NCBI GenBank assembly: GCA_963822945.1
Contig: CAWGJO010000021.1
Span: forward strand, 64,001-128,000
DNA: 64,000 nucleotides
Origin: an uncultured Gemmatimonadaceae bacterium
Lineage (GTDB): Bacteria > Gemmatimonadota > Gemmatimonadetes > Gemmatimonadales > Gemmatimonadaceae
Direction: 5' to 3'
Shown: in pieces, positions 9,669 through 16,085 of the stretch
How the letters are laid out: each line of letters starts with the position of its first letter
Numbering within the stretch: position 1 is the stretch's first letter
Position numbers and translations under genes: made by a program
Notes under the pieces: generated by a model
What the model was told of the DNA's origin: nothing
What the model saw: only the letters and a program-made list of their open reading frames with translations
Databases searched by the model: none

Positions 9669-9780
9669 TGAGGCGTCTCCTTGTGGTGGGAGGTCAGGTC
9701 ACCCAATGCCGCCCGGCCCGGCACGGAACGAACGGCGCGCGCGGTGCGGGCATCCCCCGCCCTCGCACGCGCCAAGCGCA

Positions 9781-11106
9781 TCAAGGCGCGGAATCGCACC
9801 TCGTCGTGATGGTCGATGTCTCCACCAGCGGGGCCGGCAGCCCCGGAAAGAGTGGATACGCGCCCGGGCGCCGTGTGCCCCAACTCAGCATCAGCGAATC
9901 GCGGCCCAACGGTGTGAGCCGGGGTGGCGTCTCGGCGGCGTCGAACGGCAGCTGGTGCCACGCGATCGGCCCGTCATCGCCGACCGCGGCGGCGGTGAGC
10001 TGGTGCCCGTCGTGATACCGGCCCACGACGAACACGCTGTCGCCGAGTCGAGCCGCGGCGAGAAACTCGACGACGGGATCGTTGACGGTGGCGCGCCCCT
10101 GCCGCCACGTCGCACCGCCGTCGCGCGACGACGCGCGTTCGATGGTCCGCGCGTTCCGCGCCCCGGGCGCCGTCCGATGCACGCTCCAGACCAGGTGCAG
10201 AGCGCCGTCGCGCGTGGCCACCATCCGCAGCCAGTTGACACCGGCGAGGCCGAGGTCGGCGACGCTCTGTGGCGCGCTCCACGTCGCGCCCAGATCGTGC
10301 GACCTGACGATGAACACGCCGCTCGCCTCGAGGCGTCCGGACGGCAGCAGCATCGATCCCACGAAGGCAAGCACCAGCGTGTGGTCCGACGTTGTCGTGA
10401 GCGCGAGGTCGGTGGGTGGAATGGGGCCCGCGGGGATCCACGCGCGGCGCCACGCACCGTGATCGCGGCGCAGGTACACGATGCCGAGTGTGTCGCCCGA
10501 CCGGCGCGCCTGTCGCACGGGTACGGCGAGCGCCGTCTCCCCGGCGATCGTGCGCACCACCGGATACCCGGCGTTCCACGCGATCTCGTCGAACGCCAAC
10601 ACGCGCTCGGGGGTGCTCCATCCGTTGCCGGCGAATCGGGCGTGCCAGACCGCCGGCACCTGCTCCAGCGCGTGGTACGACGTGTCGGCGCTTTCGCCCC
10701 AGAACACGTCGAGTGCTCCGTCACTGCGGGACGCGGCCTGCACCGCCAGCATGCGGGTCGCGCCGGTGGGCATCGAGACCAACTCGGTGGCGCCACCAGG
10801 TGCCCGCACCACACCGGCTAGCCGCGACGGATCGACCATGGGCCGCGCCCCGGCCCCCGTGTCAGCGAACACCGTGGGCGTGCTCCACACGAAGGTCGGC
10901 ACGCCGAGCAGTGCCAGTCCGCCCGCGAACCGGACCGGCCTGGCGCCGTCGACGTACACGGGCCGTCCGTCCGCCATCGTGAGCGTCCGTGAAGCGCTCC
11001 ACGCGTACGGACGGCAGCGGCCGTCGGACCGCTGGGCCCCGAGTTGGCGAATCGGGAGCACGGGGGCGGACGCAACGCAGAGGACGATGGCGAGGCAAAG
11101 GCGCAT
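9781..11106 (-). CDS. Secreted BNR/Asp-box (sialidase-like beta-propeller) protein
   Basis: Signal peptide from ATG 11106; Asp-boxes SHDLGATW and SRDGGATW; GALHLVW-type blade strands. Confidence 0.72.
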   Translation of the reverse strand: MRLCLAIVLCVASAPVLPIRQLGAQRSDGRCRPYAWSASRTLTMADGRPVYVDGARPVRFAGGLALLGVPTFVWSTPTVFADTGAGARPMVDPSRLAGVVRAPGGATELVSMPTGATRMLAVQAASRSDGALDVFWGESADTSYHALEQVPAVWHARFAGNGWSTPERVLAFDEIAWNAGYPVVRTIAGETALAVPVRQARRSGDTLGIVYLRRDHGAWRRAWIPAGPIPPTDLALTTTSDHTLVLAFVGSMLLPSGRLEASGVFIVRSHDLGATWSAPQSVADLGLAGVNWLRMVATRDGALHLVWSVHRTAPGARNARTIERASSRDGGATWRQGRATVNDPVVEFLAAARLGDSVFVVGRYHDGHQLTAAAVGDDGPIAWHQLPFDAAETPPRLTPLGRDSLMLSWGTRRPGAYPLFPGLPAPLVETSTITTRCDSAP

Positions 11107-11382
11107 GAGCAGGGTGGCGGGAGGGAGACGCTGGGTTCGTGCGCCGAGTGTACCGCTCGGGGCCGGTCGCACCGCCACCCGCAGCGCGCGGGGAGAATCA
11201 ATTCATTGCGCGTGTCACCCTCTGAATCGCACGATCGCAGAAAGGCGCACGCGACATTCGCGCGCGCGCGCGCCAACTCCGGCACGCTGATCTATACGGT
11301 TTCTTTGTGTTTTTCTCAGGGATTTCCCCACACAAGGACAGTGTTCGTCCGATGGCATGAAGAGGGTCACTGGCTAATGTTC

Positions 11383-11408
11383 GCTCGCGTCACGCGAGTG
11401 ACGTGAGC
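11383..11408 (+). promoter_or_regulatory. 11-bp hairpin with GNRA tetraloop in the cytochrome operon leader
   Basis: GCTCGCGTCAC-GCGA-GTGACGTGAGC (one G:U pair), followed about 14 nt later by a T8 run and the RBS. Confidence 0.45.
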
Positions 11409-11445
11409 AAGCGAAGACCGTCTTTTTTTTGGGGGATACACATCG

Positions 11446-11847
11446 ATGGGGTTCCTGACGATTCTCGCGCGAAGCGCTGCCACGATCGTCCTTGCGTCGG
11501 GCGGAGGTCACACGGTGCACCGTCCGCAAACCGCGACCTTGCCTGACACGGGTCAGATCACGACGCAGATGATCAGTTCGGGCCGCGGGATCTTTCATGG
11601 ACAGGGCGGTTGCTTCGTCTGCCATGGCGCCAACCTTCAGGGGTCGCCCATCGCTCCCCCGCTCGACAAGCACGGCAAGCCCTGGCTGGCGGCGAAGGGC
11701 GGCACCTACGCCCAGATCTTCGCCGTCGTGACGCACGGCGTACCGGGCACCGTCATGGTCGCGCACCCCAACGGGATCAACGACGCGCTCGCCACCGAAG
11801 TCGCCGCTTACATCTGGGCAGTCAACCACCGCGGTGTGAAACCGTAA
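11446..11847 (+). CDS. Monoheme c-type cytochrome, probably periplasmic
   Basis: CFVCH heme motif; GVPGTVM supplies a candidate Met ligand; hydrophobic N-terminus; GGGGGA RBS. Confidence 0.9.
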   Translation: MGFLTILARSAATIVLASGGGHTVHRPQTATLPDTGQITTQMISSGRGIFHGQGGCFVCHGANLQGSPIAPPLDKHGKPWLAAKGGTYAQIFAVVTHGVPGTVMVAHPNGINDALATEVAAYIWAVNHRGVKP

Positions 11848-11858
11848 CCGGAGCCTCC

Positions 11859-13319
11859 ATGCACAGATATCTCTCCCTCCCGCGCCGGATAGGCCTGGGT
11901 CTCTCCGCTCTCCTGCTCGCGCTGGCCACGCTGGCGACGCCGGCCACCGCGCGCGCGGACCGTGGCGCGACCAGCGCCGCCAGTGCCCTCGGCGTCAGCG
12001 CCGATCACGCCGTCATGAACCGCAGCCTGATGGTCGCCCTCGCGAAAGCCCACGCCAACATCCCGGCGTTCTCGCGGCAGACCGGCATGGCCTGCAGCAT
12101 GTGCCACTATCAGTTTCCGGCGCTTACGCCCTTCGGCCGCCTGTTCAAGCTCAACGGCTACACGCTCACCGGAATCGCGACGATCAACGCCCAGGCCGAT
12201 ACCACCAAGGATCCGAGCCTGAAGCTGCTCACCGTCCCGCCCATGGCAGCGATGTTCGTCGGCGATTTCGCACAGACGGCGAAGGCCGTGCCCGGCACGC
12301 AGAACGGCACCGCTCAGTTCCCCGACCAGGCCAGCCTGTTCGTCGGCGGCGCGATCACGCCGAACCTGGGCATCTTCTCGCAGTTCACGTACGCCGCGGC
12401 CGACGGCACCTTCGGCATGGACAACCTCGATCTCCGCTACGCGAAGAACCACACGTTCGGCGATGGCAACAGCCTGCTCTTCGGCCTGACGCTGAACAAC
12501 AATCCCACCGTGCAGGATGTCTGGAACACGGTACCGGCATGGAGCTTCCCCTTCATGGGATCGGAGGCCGTCCCGGCACCGGGTGCCGGCACCATGATCG
12601 ACGGAGCGCTCGGACAGGCCGTGGTCGGCCTCGGCGCTTACACGTTGCTCAACAACCACCTCTACTCCGAACTCACCCTGTATCGGTCGTCGCCGCAGGG
12701 CGCCAGCTACCCGCTGGACGGGAGCGCAGGCAACACCACGTCGGGTGTGTCGCCGTACTGGCGTGTCGCCTGGCAGCAGCCGCTCAATCAGGATTACCTG
12801 ATGGTGGGCACGTTCGGCATGCACACCCAGTTGTACCCCTCTGACATCACCGGCCCCACCAACCAGTTCACCGACGTCGGCGTCGATGCGCAGTACGAGC
12901 ACCCGACGGGCGCGGGCGCCGTGATCGGACGCGCGACCTACACGCACGAATCGCAGAACCGCGTGGCCGATTTCATCTCGGGCGCCTCGCAGCAGCACGA
13001 CAACCTGACCACGTTCAAGGCCAACGTGTCGCTCGCCACGTCGCTCTACTACGGCGCGTCGTTCGGCTACTTCCAGACGAACGGCACCACGGATGCCATT
13101 CTGTACGCGGCCAACCCGGTGGACGGCAGCGCCAACGGCAGCCCGAACTCTCAGGGCTTCGTGGGTCAGCTGAACTACAACGTGTGGCAGAACGTGCGGT
13201 TGGGCCTGCAATACACGATGTACACCAAGTTCAACGGTGGGAACACCAACTACGACGGCTCGGGACGCTCGGCGTCCGACAACAACACGCTGTATCTGTT
13301 CACGTGGTTGGCCTTCTGA
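11859..13319 (+). CDS. cyc2: Cyc2-family fused cytochrome c-porin (putative outer-membrane Fe(II)/metal oxidase)
   Basis: IPAFSRQTGMACSMCHYQFPALTPFGRLFKLNGY heme domain; QFPDQASLF, LNNNPTVQDVWNT, PYWRVAWQ, VGTFGM, KFNG...NNTLYLFTWLAF barrel with terminal Phe. True start ATG 11859 after GGAG. Confidence 0.85.
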   Translation: MHRYLSLPRRIGLGLSALLLALATLATPATARADRGATSAASALGVSADHAVMNRSLMVALAKAHANIPAFSRQTGMACSMCHYQFPALTPFGRLFKLNGYTLTGIATINAQADTTKDPSLKLLTVPPMAAMFVGDFAQTAKAVPGTQNGTAQFPDQASLFVGGAITPNLGIFSQFTYAAADGTFGMDNLDLRYAKNHTFGDGNSLLFGLTLNNNPTVQDVWNTVPAWSFPFMGSEAVPAPGAGTMIDGALGQAVVGLGAYTLLNNHLYSELTLYRSSPQGASYPLDGSAGNTTSGVSPYWRVAWQQPLNQDYLMVGTFGMHTQLYPSDITGPTNQFTDVGVDAQYEHPTGAGAVIGRATYTHESQNRVADFISGASQQHDNLTTFKANVSLATSLYYGASFGYFQTNGTTDAILYAANPVDGSANGSPNSQGFVGQLNYNVWQNVRLGLQYTMYTKFNGGNTNYDGSGRSASDNNTLYLFTWLAF

Positions 13320-13365
13320 TCCTCCACTGATCCGACGCCTGCCCCGCGGACGGGCCAGGACCTTC

Positions 13366-13408
13366 CCCCGCCCCGGCGAGCCCCGCTCGCCGGGGCGGGG
13401 TTCGTGTT
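13366..13408 (+). terminator. Intrinsic terminator after cyc2
   Basis: Perfect 16-bp stem CCCCGCCCCGGCGAGC-ccc-GCTCGCCGGGGCGGGG followed by TTCGTGTT. Confidence 0.75.
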
Positions 13409-13589
13409 ACCCCGGGACGGATCCTCCGGGCCGGTGTGATCCAGGCGCTTGACAGCACCCCCCTTCGGGGTGACAGGTTGGGCCTCGACCGACCGCCTCG
13501 CGCCCTGCTTCCCTCCTCTCACCAACCCGCGCCCTCTGCCAACACCCACGCGCATCCCCCTCACCTCGCCCGGCACGCGCTCGAACGTC

Positions 13590-14894
13590 GTGCGGCGGCT
13601 GGCGCGCGTCGCCAGCCTGGGGCTCGTGCTGCTGGGCGGAGTCACCTGCACCGACGGTCCAAGTTCGCCCGGCGCCGGCGGGCCCGCTCTGGTCCGCGTG
13701 GCGCCGCAATTCTCCAGAGCCGCGGCGGCGGCCCTCGGCACGTTGGGGCAGTTCGGACTCGCGATCGATACCGCGCACGTGCGGATCGACCAGCTCGACC
13801 GCCTCTCCGACACCGCCGGATTCGACACGGTCGTCGCCGTGCCGCCCGGCAGCGATACCCTCCGCCTCTCGTTCCCCATCGTCCTCAGCGCCCCGACCGA
13901 GCGATTGCAGGTCACGGTAGATCTGCGGCATGGTCAGCAGCTACTGTTCTCCGGCACGCAGATCATATCCGCCGCGGTCGGCGCGCCGTCCACCGCTGCG
14001 CCTCCGGTCATCGCGATCGAGTATGTGGGTCCAGGGGCCGGTGCCACGCAGCTCTTCATCGCCCCGCGCGACACCGTCATCGGTGTCCAGGGCATCGTGA
14101 AATACCTGTTCACGGCGCTCGACAGCACCAAAGCCGTGGTCACGTCGGCCACCGTGGCGTGGAGTCTCTCGGACTCCAGCGTCGGAGCGATCGACAGCGG
14201 GACCGGCACGTTCGTCTCCAATGGCACGGAGGGCGAAACGCGCGTCTTTGCCGTGACGCCGAACGCCCTGCGCGATTCCACGACACTCACCATCACCGCG
14301 CCGCCGTCGAAGCTCGTGATCCTGAGTGGCGGCGCCCAGACCGGGGCTCCGAGCAGCGTGCTGCCGCAGCCGCTGGTGGTGCAGGCCCAGACGCCGGGCG
14401 GTCATCCCGTGGCCGGTGTCGCGGTGACGTTCGTGCCGGCGGCAACCGGGTCGGTGAACCCCGCCGCCGCCGTGACCGACAGTACCGGCCGCGCGCAGGC
14501 CACGATGACGCTTGGGCGGACCTCCGGCATCCAGATCTTTGGCGTGCTGTCCAGCGGCCTCGCCGGCGACTCCGTTGCGGAGTACGCCACCGCAGGCCCC
14601 GGCGCGTCGATGCTCAAGGTGGCGGGCGATTCACAGACCGTCGCCGCTTCCACCACCGTCCCGGTGGCGCCCACGGTCAGGATCATCGGCGCCACGGGCG
14701 CACCCCTGGCCGGCATTCCCGTGGTGTTCGCGGTGACCGCGGGCGGCGGCAGTGTGACGGGCGGTACCGTGCTTACCGACAGCACCGGTACGGCCACGGT
14801 CGGCGCCTGGATGCTGGGCGGCAGCGGGGCCCAGACGCTGGTAGCGACCAGCGGCGCGCTGAGCGCGACGTTCACGGCGTTCATCGCGCCTTAG
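13590..14894 (+). CDS. Exported Ig-like (Big_1/Big_2) domain protein, possible lipoprotein
   Basis: Hydrophobic leader ending GGVT-C; WSLSDSSVGAID (Big_2); two SGGAQTG/AGDSQT...TDSTG.A Big_1-type repeats. Start uncertain (13449-13590). Confidence 0.8.
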   Translation: MRRLARVASLGLVLLGGVTCTDGPSSPGAGGPALVRVAPQFSRAAAAALGTLGQFGLAIDTAHVRIDQLDRLSDTAGFDTVVAVPPGSDTLRLSFPIVLSAPTERLQVTVDLRHGQQLLFSGTQIISAAVGAPSTAAPPVIAIEYVGPGAGATQLFIAPRDTVIGVQGIVKYLFTALDSTKAVVTSATVAWSLSDSSVGAIDSGTGTFVSNGTEGETRVFAVTPNALRDSTTLTITAPPSKLVILSGGAQTGAPSSVLPQPLVVQAQTPGGHPVAGVAVTFVPAATGSVNPAAAVTDSTGRAQATMTLGRTSGIQIFGVLSSGLAGDSVAEYATAGPGASMLKVAGDSQTVAASTTVPVAPTVRIIGATGAPLAGIPVVFAVTAGGGSVTGGTVLTDSTGTATVGAWMLGGSGAQTLVATSGALSATFTAFIAP

Positions 14895-14916
14895 GGAACG
14901 CCGCCGGCCTCCACCG

Positions 14917-15621
14917 TCACCACGTCGTCGGGCCCAGGTACTCACGCCGGAACCGCTCATCCGCGGATGCTGCGGCCGGCGCTCCCAGTTCGTAGGTCGT
15001 CCCGTCGGTGCACCAGGTGACGCGGGTGGCCGCCGCAAACAGCGACGACACCTCGTGGCCGGTGATCACGACGGCGCAGCCGCGACGCGCCAGCGACCGG
15101 AAGGCGTTCGACAGCAACTCCGCATCCCTCGGCGCGACCCCGAGGAAGGGTTCATCCGCAACCAGGCATCTCGGATCTCGTGTCAGCGCCGCGGCGATTT
15201 CCACCCGCCGGAGTTCGCCGCCCGACAATTGATCCGGGGTTCGTCCGAGCAGCCCCGCGATCCGGAGCCAGTCGAGGTCCTGCAACGCCGGGCCGCCCGC
15301 GAATTGCCGGCTGAACATCTCGATTTGCGTCCCCACGGGCAGCGCGCGCGACAACAGCCCGCGGACCGGGAGGTAGAAGAGTCCCTCGGCCGCCAACCGG
15401 TGGTGCCGGGCGTCCAGATACGGCCGGCCGGCGAAGTGGACCGTTCCGGAATCGGGGGACAGCCGGCCGCACGCGATCCGGAGCAGCGTCGACTTCCCGA
15501 TGCCGTTGCGCCCGACGAGCGCGCGAACTTCTCCCGCGTAGGCGCGGAGCGTGGCCGACGTCAGCACCGGCCGCCCGGCGAATCGTTTCGCCACGGAGTC
15601 GGCGATCAGCATCGCGGTCAT
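14917..15621 (-). CDS. ABC transporter ATP-binding protein (LptB-like)
   Basis: GRNGIGKST Walker A, LSGGE signature, LVADEP Walker B, ITGH H-loop; start ATG 15621. Confidence 0.88.
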   Translation of the reverse strand: MTAMLIADSVAKRFAGRPVLTSATLRAYAGEVRALVGRNGIGKSTLLRIACGRLSPDSGTVHFAGRPYLDARHHRLAAEGLFYLPVRGLLSRALPVGTQIEMFSRQFAGGPALQDLDWLRIAGLLGRTPDQLSGGELRRVEIAAALTRDPRCLVADEPFLGVAPRDAELLSNAFRSLARRGCAVVITGHEVSSLFAAATRVTWCTDGTTYELGAPAAASADERFRREYLGPTTW

Positions 15622-15965
15622 CCGAGATGAGCGCCGGCCGCGAGCACCAGCAGCTCCCCAACCAGTGGCGGTACGGCGTCGATGAGCGTACACCAGAGTC
15701 GTGATATGCCGAGGTTGGCGATGAGCACGCCCTCTCCGTGTCGCACCTCGTCGATCGCGGACGCGGCAACGCACAGCACGATCACTCCCAGCGACGCGGT
15801 GGGGGTAAGTCGGATCGGGTCGGCTCCCACCATGCGCAGTCCGACGCCGAGGAGCGCCCGCGTGGCCACCCACACGGTGGCACCGCGGATCATGCGTGTG
15901 CGAACGAGGATCACATTGGGGAGCATGGGCGGGAATTCGGGTACGGGGTCGTACCGCGGAGGCAT
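15618..15965 (-). CDS. Small hypothetical membrane protein, coupled to the ABC ATPase
   Basis: Three hydrophobic stretches; ATGA overlap with the ATPase start; start at 15965 or 15926. Confidence 0.55.
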   Translation of the reverse strand: MPPRYDPVPEFPPMLPNVILVRTRMIRGATVWVATRALLGVGLRMVGADPIRLTPTASLGVIVLCVAASAIDEVRHGEGVLIANLGISRLWCTLIDAVPPLVGELLVLAAGAHLG

Positions 15966-16085
15966 CCTTACGTTCCTGCCCGGCCGGCACCCTTGACGGG
16001 CGCCGCCCTCGGACGCATGGTTCGCGGCCTTCCACAGCACCGCCCGCCCCCACTCGATCCCCCCCCGCCATCCCCAGGGGAACTC

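What the first reader, a model, noticed from the sequence alone, without database searches (positions are those of the whole stretch)
11446..13408. Self-contained cytochrome c + Cyc2 cytochrome-porin operon: candidate extracellular electron uptake (Fe(II) oxidation) module
Seen: a monoheme cytochrome gene sits 11 nt before a 486-codon protein with an N-terminal PAFSRQTG-CxxCH-..P.LTPFGR.FKL.GY heme domain and a beta-barrel ending in Phe, closed by a 16-bp terminator. Knowledge: these motifs, plus QFP.Q.SLF, NN.PT..D.WNT and KFNG, match Acidithiobacillus-type Cyc2 as I recall it, which passes electrons to periplasmic cytochromes. Inference: a minimal two-gene outer-membrane conduit in a probable Gemmatimonadota organism, a group not established as iron oxidisers. 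Cyc2 homology alone does not prove Fe oxidation.
Basis: partly seen in the sequence, partly recalled or inferred. Interest (0 to 1): 0.85.

Follow-up and report, generated by a model that had tools for sequence, protein, structure and literature searches.

The report
Cyc2 pore with dedicated partner cytochrome
Two adjacent genes of a Gemmatimonadaceae bacterium encode a Cyc2-type one-heme protein with a predicted outer-membrane pore and a small partner cytochrome that stays beside it in many relatives; together they likely carry electrons between dissolved iron outside the cell and the respiratory chain, but such pores were already reported in this phylum and both substrate and direction are untested.

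Summary
Observation confirmed. 11446-11847 encodes a His/Met class I cytochrome c. 11859-13319 encodes a Cyc2-family protein (PxFxRQT-CxxCH-PxL; predicted 16-strand porin, best fold match OprP), followed by a 16-bp hairpin. The host is Gemmatimonadaceae. Cyc2 in Gemmatimonadota is already in print, and this scan noted a similar pair in another Gemmatimonadales genome. Full-length homologues occur in 45 of 251 phylum genomes. The pairing is real: a related cytochrome lies within 1.5 kb in 26 of 41 genomes, in several orientations. 'Self-contained' is overstated: relatives add a DUF6789 membrane protein, and the cytochrome's closest paralogue ends a second alternative complex III (ACIII) operon. 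Lineage traits: a ~35-residue N-terminal extension (39/39 Gemmatimonadales loci, 0/71 others) and mostly FSR in place of FAR. No RuBisCO was found (genome 88% complete). Best reading: electron uptake from dissolved Fe(II) supplementing a heterotroph (0.45). Main rival: outward flow to Fe(III) chelates (0.25). Cluster 2 placement and binding were not tested. Interest 0.4.

The parts
11292..11353 (+). Conserved AT-richer upstream block with short inverted repeats; likely promoter/operator region
   Evidence: Mostly invariant in a 5-sequence alignment; one sub-motif also found in G014, whose Cyc2 is 62% identical; no sigma-70 consensus hit; no Rfam hit
11388..11403 (.). 16-nt perfect palindrome (operator site or 5' leader hairpin with a GCGA loop; inferred)
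   Evidence: Pattern found in G000, G012, G006, G003, G014; not in G001, G004, G005, G010, G011, G013, G027, G032; the only intergenic instance of 9 in the genome
11446..11847 (+). Monoheme class I cytochrome c (P0002), N-terminal export signal inferred, His60/Met104 ligation inferred; likely periplasmic partner of Cyc2
   Evidence: Pfam PF00034; M104 invariant in 29 homologues and aligned with the Met of CcoP heme domains; model core pLDDT 83-92; beside Cyc2 in relatives
11859..13319 (+). Cyc2-family fused monoheme cytochrome-porin (P0001, 486 aa)
   Evidence: defining features from PMC8406198
11859..11957 (+). Predicted Sec signal peptide (residues 1-33, ends in A-R-A)
   Evidence: Basic N-region, hydrophobic helix H7-26, AxA; read by eye, SignalP not available
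11958..12062 (+). Gemmatimonadales-specific N-terminal extension (residues 34-68) with predicted helix 55-66
   Evidence: Distance from hydrophobic-region end to the motif Pro is >=20 aa in 39 of 39 Gemmatimonadales loci (median 39) and 0 of 71 scored non-Gemmatimonadota loci (median 9)
12063..12164 (+). Cyc2 heme domain (residues 69-102): PxFSRQT, CxxCH, PxL
   Evidence: P69, R73, Q74, T75, C79, C82, H83, F86 and L89-T102 invariant in 120 sequences
12243..13316 (+). Predicted 16-strand beta-barrel ending in Phe, with conserved acidic residues (D188, D220, D339, D343, D412)
   Evidence: (OprP Z 22.3, rmsd 3.9, 323 aligned; tied within 1 Z with other 16-strand porins)
13366..13400 (+). Intrinsic-terminator-like hairpin, 16 bp
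   Evidence: listed RNA contigs of relatives end by 13328

Best explanation
The two genes form a conserved operon for a Cyc2-family outer-membrane conduit: the predicted 16-strand pore likely admits dissolved or chelated Fe(II) to its single periplasm-side heme, which likely passes the electron to the co-encoded class I cytochrome c and on to the respiratory chain. Shown: gene structure, Cyc2 motifs, conserved linkage of the two genes, and presence of the sequence in RNA libraries from relatives. Predicted: the barrel fold. Inferred: the cytochrome is the direct acceptor; the sink is mainly the caa3 oxidase (C20), possibly also the second ACIII operon that ends in the cytochrome's closest paralogue; with no RuBisCO found, this would be energy supplementation of a heterotroph (lithoheterotrophy), not autotrophy. 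Untested: substrate and direction.
For: Cyc2 membership features met. The Cyc2 homologues reported as tested in the papers read oxidise Fe(II): A. ferrooxidans Cyc2, Leptospirillum Cyt572 and M. ferrooxydans PV-1 Cyc2 (PMC8406198), and 'Ca. Mariimomonas' Cyc2 in E. coli (PMC13647500). Barrel acidic residues are conserved (D220, D343, D412 in 47/47; D188 46/47; D339 45/47); D339/D343/E347 alternate with hydrophobic residues in one strand, so they likely face the lumen (inferred). Partner linkage: a related cytochrome within 1.5 kb in 26 of 41 genomes, upstream, downstream or divergent. In family f1 the cytochrome subfamily and full-length Cyc2 co-occur 16/16, and neither was found in the other 21 (counts G002's contig-truncated copy). 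Where the cytochrome is missing, a cupredoxin (L165-L167) or a Rieske-cytochrome b-cytochrome c run (L173) adjoins Cyc2. Sinks present: caa3 oxidase, cytochrome bd, two ACIII types, cytochrome c maturation. In Sideroxydans ES-1, ACIII and monoheme class I cytochromes were upregulated on Fe(II) (PMC8788666 passages).
Against: No RuBisCO match (genome 88% complete), so reverse electron flow is of less use. PMC8406198 warns that much of Clusters 2 and 3 is distant from tested proteins and may have other functions. The family is common in heterotrophs (Acidobacteriota loci; Burkholderiales plasmids), and a 37%-identical homologue with a c-type cytochrome lies on a plasmid of the Fe(III) reducer Acidiphilium cryptum JF-5. 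Expression of cyc2 did not track iron oxidation in Sideroxydans CL21 (PMC12442390 abstract). The N-terminal motif departs from the published consensus at 2 of 7 fixed positions. The heme domain is poorly modelled (pLDDT < 50).
Confidence: 0.45

Rival explanations
1. Outward conduit: quinol from organic-carbon or H2 oxidation passes through the second ACIII to the P0002-type cytochrome and Cyc2, which reduces soluble Fe(III) chelates or humic quinones at low oxygen.
For: ACIII normally runs quinol to cytochrome c (established knowledge). The closest paralogue of P0002 (56% identical) ends the second ACIII operon, which follows 2-oxoacid:ferredoxin oxidoreductase, PFOR-like and rnf genes (the oxidoreductase genes named by eye from their sequence). 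8 of 26 subfamily copies lie within 6 kb of a second ActC. In L005, Cyc2 is divergent from actA of that operon. NiFe hydrogenase present, RuBisCO not found. Cyc2 has been proposed as terminal Fe(III) reductase in anaerobic A. ferrooxidans (PMC8790237 passages). The Fe(III) reducer A. cryptum JF-5 carries a homologous pair next to U32/SCP2 ubiquinone genes.
Against: No direct Fe(III) reduction by a Cyc2 was found in the papers read. Co-occurrence of Cyc2 with the second ACIII (11 of 12 vs 0 of 5 in the genus) rests on only about 2 independent pairs, sign test p 0.5. The genome has many multiheme cytochromes (7-22 CxxCH) that could serve reduction instead.
Confidence: 0.25
2. Same conduit, another small donor (Mn(II), reduced quinones or phenazines, Cu(I)), or a redox-buffering role not used for energy.
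For: Vertical-looking retention in Gemmatimonadales (Cyc2 tree nests genus within family within order) with patchy loss (6 changes on a 30-genome marker tree). Two distant Cyc2 types coexist in this genome, each with its own cytochrome, suggesting different substrates. The lineage-specific extension could alter access. A search listing shows Cyc2 discussed in Mn-oxidising Manganitrophaceae (paper not read).
Against: No tested Cyc2 with a non-iron substrate was found in the papers read; the acidic barrel residues fit a cation but do not pick one.
Confidence: 0.22
3. The heme is a gate or sensor on an ordinary porin, and the cytochrome is only a co-regulated neighbour.
For: The fold matches are all ordinary solute porins; 15 of 41 genomes have no related cytochrome within 1.5 kb (some contigs are cut short).
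Against: Linkage survives inversion and reordering; other electron carriers take the cytochrome's place; the second Cyc2 type has a related cytochrome directly downstream in 12 of 13 full-length loci.
Confidence: 0.08

Closest known systems
Cyc2 of Acidithiobacillus ferrooxidans (Cluster 2; rus operon, partners rusticyanin and Cyc1)
   Same: Signal peptide + single CxxCH + 16-strand barrel modelled on OprP/OprO (bioRxiv 2021.03.22.436458 passages; PMC8406198); encoded with periplasmic carriers. A plasmid-borne A. ferrooxidans homologue (not the rus-operon gene) is 37% identical over 436 columns.
   Different: Partner is a monoheme class I cytochrome, not rusticyanin or diheme Cyc1; no oxidase genes in the operon; ~35-aa extension and FSR motif; host without RuBisCO found. 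Direct comparison with the rus-operon protein was not possible; the proposed H119/D137/D138 site could not be mapped with a tool.
Cyc2 of Mariprofundus ferrooxydans PV-1 (Cluster 1; 208 mV Fe(II) oxidase, PMC8406198)
   Same: Same architecture and heme-domain motif family; same best structural template (OprP).
Cyc2-like genes of Acidobacteriota and other MAGs, and of Burkholderiales and Acidiphilium plasmids
   Same: 42-49% and 33-42% identity; on the three plasmids viewed in full, and partly on pACRY03, a c-type cytochrome lies nearby.
   Different: In loci L008-L080 the motif follows the signal peptide directly (0 of 71 with the extension); different partner cytochromes.
Cyc2 already noted in Gemmatimonadota MAGs (PMC9769843, PMC11316326, PMC13055281)
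   Same: Same phylum and family of protein, listed as putative iron-cycling genes; PMC11316326 says oxidation and reduction cannot be told apart.
   Different: In the passages read there is no partner cytochrome, DUF6789, ACIII link or extension; supplements of these papers were not read.

Membership tests
Cyc2 (Keffer et al. 2021, PMC8406198) | Length at least 365 aa | tested here: met
   486 aa
Cyc2 (Keffer et al. 2021, PMC8406198) | Single N-terminal CXXCH after a signal peptide | tested here: met
   C79-C82-H83, only CxxCH; signal peptide read by eye and from helix H7-26
Cyc2 (Keffer et al. 2021, PMC8406198) | AXPXFAR[Q/K][T/Y] consensus just upstream of CXXCH | tested here: inconclusive
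   5 of 7 fixed positions match (P69, F71, R73, Q74, T75); first A is N67 and FAR is FSR. FSR in 103 of the 120 Cyc2 proteins and 29 of 39 Gemmatimonadales loci; A at that place in 67 of 71 other loci. A lineage variant of a consensus, not loss of the motif.
Cyc2 (Keffer et al. 2021, PMC8406198) | PXL motif 4 residues after CXXCH | tested here: met
   P87-A88-L89; L89 invariant, P87 >= 90% in 120 sequences
Cyc2 (Keffer et al. 2021, PMC8406198) | C-terminal 16-strand beta-barrel resembling OprO/OprP | tested here: met
   16 strands in the model; top VIA match OprP 2o4v Z 22.3, rmsd 3.9, 323 aligned, tied with other porins; Foldseek top hits are trimeric porins
Cyc2 (Keffer et al. 2021, PMC8406198) | Hit to a FeGenie Cyc2 HMM | not testable with these tools
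   FeGenie models not held; Pfam gave only two hits below cut-off and NCBIfam none
Cyc2 Cluster 2 (A. ferrooxidans type) | Placement in Cluster 2 of the reference tree | tested here: inconclusive
   No reference sequences obtainable. Indirect: 42-45% identity to two Burkholderiales plasmid homologues against 16-23% to the FARKY-type paralogues; published identities among Ferrovum, Dechloromonas, Burkholderiales GJ-E10, Acidithiobacillus and Thiomonas are 27-35%, and 15-23% from these to the other taxa (Fig. S7D).
Cyc2 iron oxidase (functional) | Heme reduced by Fe(II); potential between Fe(III)/Fe(II) and O2 | not testable with these tools
   Needs biochemistry
Class I monoheme cytochrome c (P0002) | N-terminal CxxCH, distal Met, cytochrome c helices | tested here: met
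   PF00034 over cut-off; M104 invariant and aligned to CcoP Met; helices 40-51, 88-97, 113-128
MtoAB/PioAB/MtrAB porin-multiheme conduits | Separate MtrB/PioB barrel plus decaheme cytochrome | tested here: not met
   One heme fused to a 16-strand barrel; PF11854 not found in this 88%-complete genome

The most novel reading that the evidence does not exclude
Gemmatimonadales carry their own Cyc2 variant (N-terminal extension, FSR motif that the published Cyc2 tree filter would have excluded) as part of a modular chain, Cyc2 - dedicated cytochrome c - DUF6789 membrane protein - second ACIII tied to PFOR/Rnf, that runs outward or both ways. It would let abundant soil and sediment heterotrophs dump respiratory electrons on Fe(III) chelates or humics, or take them back, as oxygen fluctuates. 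Cyc2 would then not be a marker of iron oxidation in these communities, and DUF6789 would gain a first role in electron transfer.
Probability: 0.2. Interest if true: 0.75.

Novelty: new variant of a known kind. Interest (0 to 1): 0.4.

Why it matters
Cyc2 is widely used as a marker for microbial Fe(II) oxidation, yet few homologues have been tested and most lie in organisms not known to oxidise iron. Here a whole order of abundant heterotrophs keeps a Cyc2 variant together with a specific, small, expressible partner cytochrome. That makes an open question directly testable: measuring the two midpoint potentials and the direction of transfer would say whether such Cyc2 proteins take up or release electrons. 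The gene itself is a known kind, and its presence in this phylum is already in print.

Tried and rejected
Pfam and NCBIfam give no Cyc2 model. No solved Cyc2 relative by sequence: one chance nanobody hit, none with profile A1. ESM Atlas returned only unnamed 'cytochrome c family' clusters, commonest Gemmatimonadota. The rus-operon A. ferrooxidans Cyc2 could not be obtained: stepping from the plasmid homologue returned no protein named from Acidithiobacillus among 120 rows, whose named members were Acidiphilium, Acidocella and other Alphaproteobacteria; Keffer Figs S6 and S8 are pictures; a motif text search gave only unrelated papers among the 20 listed. Complex prediction of P0001 with P0002 was never run because the queue was full, so binding stays untested. 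A shared regulatory motif between this operon and the second ACIII operon or the second Cyc2 was not found. No Rfam family at 11000-13700. ATP-citrate lyase search was uninformative, as the control rang nowhere. nosZ and MtrB/PioB were not found in this 88%-complete genome. ACIII-2/Cyc2 co-occurrence (Fisher p 0.001 on raw counts) was rejected as independent support: about 2 independent pairs, p 0.5. The lack of RNA contig cover at 9700-11292 is not used as proof of a transcript boundary, since the runs were found with this stretch. Run X4 (share 0.05) was laid but shows mostly partial matches from other organisms and is not counted. The IQ-TREE run timed out; FastTree was used. Recent horizontal transfer rejected: the Cyc2 tree follows host taxonomy and GC3 is 0.89. 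DUF6789 paper search gave nothing relevant among 6 listed; only one His is invariant in 6 copies, so a bis-His heme is not supported.
Full report
Observation. The window holds a 133-codon gene at 11446-11847 and a 486-codon gene at 11859-13319, both on +, with 11 nt between them. A 16-pair hairpin lies at 13366-13400 (z -4.76, 0 of 200 shuffles as stable). The small protein is a class I cytochrome c (PF00034 over cut-off); M104 is invariant in 29 homologues and aligns with the Met of CcoP heme domains. The large protein has P69-A-F-S-R-Q-T75, CxxCH at 79-83, PxL at 87-89 and a terminal Phe. AlphaFold2 on 120 sequences gives 16 strands between residues 129 and 485 (pLDDT 75.9, pTM 0.76); the heme region is below pLDDT 50. 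The best fold match is OprP (Z 22.3, rmsd 3.9, 323 aligned), tied with other 16-strand porins (Foldseek).

Family. Keffer et al. 2021 (PMC8406198; passages, parts 2-3 of the Results and Discussion, and the text held for Figs S6-S8 were seen) define Cyc2 by length >= 365, a signal peptide, one CXXCH, an upstream AXPXFAR[Q/K][T/Y], a downstream PXL and a 16-strand OprO/OprP-like barrel. All are met except that the upstream motif matches at 5 of 7 fixed positions. FeGenie HMMs and the rus-operon A. ferrooxidans sequence were not obtainable, so Cluster 2 placement is only indirect.

Host and spread. Named homologues at 54-80% identity are Gemmatimonadaceae or Gemmatimonadota (4107 hits among 7999 scored candidates). 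In the genome collection 162 of 229 pattern matches were relatives and the best 80 were kept: six Gemmatimonadaceae titles among the first seven loci, then mostly Acidobacteriota at 42-49%. Full-length matches (E < 1e-100) occur in 28 of 61 relatives and 45 of 251 phylum genomes, all in the own order; 98 of 251 have some match (the 45 counted by hand from its table). The Cyc2 tree nests genus within family within order (FastTree, 56 rows; 5 selected loci dropped because the motif pattern missed them), so inheritance looks vertical with losses. Cyc2 in Gemmatimonadota MAGs is already in print: PMC9769843, PMC11316326 and PMC13055281 (passages only; supplements not read and may hold more). The scan's own notes include a similar pair in another Gemmatimonadales genome.

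A lineage variant. The distance from the end of the signal's hydrophobic stretch to the motif Pro is >= 20 residues in 39 of 39 Gemmatimonadales loci (median 39), against 0 of 71 scored loci among L008-L080 (72 examined, L017 left out; median 9) and 0 of 10 scored loci of the second Cyc2 type (13 examined) (simple hydropathy window, no SignalP). The model puts a helix at 55-66. The motif reads S in place of A in 29 of 39 Gemmatimonadales loci and keeps A in 67 of 71 others. The published tree removed sequences lacking PXFAR[Q/K][T/Y], so these variants would have been screened out if the filter was literal (inference).

The pair is a unit. Among 41 distinct genomes with loci of about 1.5 kb flank, 26 have a related cytochrome beside Cyc2: upstream or downstream co-oriented, divergent, and once convergent (the convergent case is G022, unpublished). 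Fifteen have none, some because the contig ends. With six family copies in a 4-Mb genome, chance proximity is under 1% (estimate). In family f1 the cytochrome subfamily (E < 1e-30, plus G002's contig-truncated copy) and full-length Cyc2 co-occur in 16 genomes and neither was found in the other 21. On a marker tree of 30 of these 37 genomes the trait changes 6 times, with 5 independent pairs; five of five gives a sign-test p of 0.06 (my arithmetic). Outside f1 the link loosens: 10 Cyc2 genomes of families f2 and f3 lack the subfamily and G059 has it without a full-length Cyc2. Where it is missing, a cupredoxin (L165-L167) or a Rieske-cytochrome b-cytochrome c run (L173) can adjoin Cyc2. A second, distant Cyc2 in this genome (C4:153625-154878, FARKY type) also has a related cytochrome directly downstream, as do 12 of 13 full-length loci of that type.

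Not self-contained. The closest paralogue of P0002 (56%) ends a second ACIII operon on C24, which follows 2-oxoacid:ferredoxin oxidoreductase, PFOR-like and rnf genes (act and rnf subunits by Pfam, the oxidoreductases by eye). Of 26 subfamily copies in the 61-genome set, 15 lie within 1.5 kb of Cyc2, 8 within 6 kb of a second ActC, and 10 within 1 kb of a DUF6789 gene; one has none of these. DUF6789, a small membrane protein, adjoins Cyc2 in 6 of 24 wider loci; 13 of its 25 copies lie by the cytochrome, Cyc2 or the second ActC, and 12 stand alone, as does this genome's copy on C36. In L005 Cyc2 is divergent from actA of the second ACIII. Within the genus the second ACIII is in 11 of 12 Cyc2 genomes and 0 of 5 others, but this rests on about 2 independent pairs (p 0.5) and is a lead only. 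Counts that include the unpublished G022: 28/61, 45/251, 26/41, 16/16, 15/26, 10/26, 13/25 and the marker tree.

Expression. Four of five listed RNA runs hold part of the stretch. In X1, X2 and X3 (two studies; sediment and soil metagenomes) contigs of relatives at 85-99% identity cover both genes, the listed pieces running from 11421 to 13328. These are contigs: they do not show strand, level or a single transcript, and DNA in the library is not excluded. In Sideroxydans CL21, cyc2 expression did not track iron oxidation (PMC12442390, abstract only).

Metabolic setting. The genome is 88% complete. Found: caa3 oxidase and a second coxI in pieces, cytochrome bd, two ACIII types, a NiFe hydrogenase, cytochrome c maturation genes and several multiheme cytochromes. 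Not found: RuBisCO, MtrB/PioB, nosZ.

Mechanism. Most likely (0.45) dissolved Fe(II) enters the acidic pore, reduces the Cyc2 heme, and the electron passes through P0002 to the caa3 oxidase, supplementing heterotrophic growth. The Cyc2 proteins reported as tested oxidise Fe(II), and monoheme class I cytochromes and ACIII responded to Fe(II) in ES-1 (PMC8788666 passages). The main rival (0.25) is outward flow through the second ACIII to Fe(III) chelates: Cyc2 has been proposed as terminal reductase in anaerobic A. ferrooxidans (PMC8790237 passages), and the Fe(III) reducer A. cryptum JF-5 carries a homologous pair on a plasmid. Other donors (0.22) or a non-transfer role (0.08) remain. Passages of PMC7029218, bioRxiv 2021.03.22.436458, bioRxiv 2026.01.22.701106 and PMC11312239 were read for background.

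Novelty. Searches pairing Cyc2 with Gemmatimonad, with alternative complex III and for DUF6789 showed no listing about this partner cytochrome, the DUF6789 link or the extension; most of those papers were seen as listings only, and the library lacks most subscription journals. Verdict: a real member of a known family in a phylum where it is already reported, with lineage-specific traits and a well-supported partner that make function testable. Interest 0.4.

Noticed in passing
G000:C4:153625-155319 (L101:7626-9320): Second, distant Cyc2-like gene (418 aa, PAFARKY-type motif, ~19% identical to P0001) followed by a related monoheme cytochrome, between SCO1/SenC + CtaG genes and cytochrome bd genes; cytochrome directly downstream in 12 of 13 full-length relatives.
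   Followed up: partly
G000:C24:103596-128270 (L102): Cluster of 2-oxoacid:ferredoxin oxidoreductase, PFOR-like gene, rnf genes, ApbE and a second ACIII operon ending in two cytochromes, the last being the closest paralogue of P0002.
   Followed up: partly
G000:C36:70353-70790; L006, L007, L175, L178, L179, L182: DUF6789 small membrane protein with invariant Met and His; travels with the P0002-type cytochrome beside Cyc2 or in the second ACIII operon in relatives, but stands alone here.
   Followed up: partly
L173:8786-12528 (G271:C1): Co-oriented run Rieske protein - cytochrome b with heme c - monoheme cytochrome c - Cyc2, a direct genomic link of Cyc2 to a quinone-pool complex (named by eye).
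   Followed up: no
L165:10672-10986, L166:7836-8150, L167:8493-8792: Plastocyanin/azurin-family cupredoxin beside Cyc2 where the cytochrome is missing, echoing rusticyanin.
   Followed up: partly
L107 and L213 (plasmids of A. ferrooxidans YQ-N3 and Acidiphilium cryptum JF-5): Cyc2-like gene plus c-type cytochrome, divergent from a transposase and U32/SCP2 ubiquinone-biosynthesis genes, in the same arrangement on both plasmids; annotated 'hypothetical protein'.
   Followed up: partly
G000:C15:28804-30097: A second cytochrome c oxidase subunit I matches in three to four frames, next to Rieske, cytochrome b and CoxB genes; frameshifts may be assembly errors.
   Followed up: no
G000:C22:75878-84576, C26:12912-19329, C27:71915-75468, C21:324947-327793: Several multiheme cytochrome genes with 7-22 CxxCH motifs; the C26 group lies beside a NiFe hydrogenase operon.
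   Followed up: no
window 13449-16071: The Big_1 (Ig-like) gene and the ABC-ATPase gene pair right after the terminator are present in L001 and L004 but missing in L002 and L003, a variable insert downstream of the operon.
   Followed up: no
G000:C9 and C17: The housekeeping ACIII ActC appears on two contigs (C9:8196-9431, C17:72356-73591) with similar scores, a possible duplicate assembly or strain mixture.
   Followed up: no
L005: Record title says Actinomycetota but its Cyc2 nests among the Gemmatimonadaceae genus clade (100*), so the contig is probably misbinned.
   Followed up: partly
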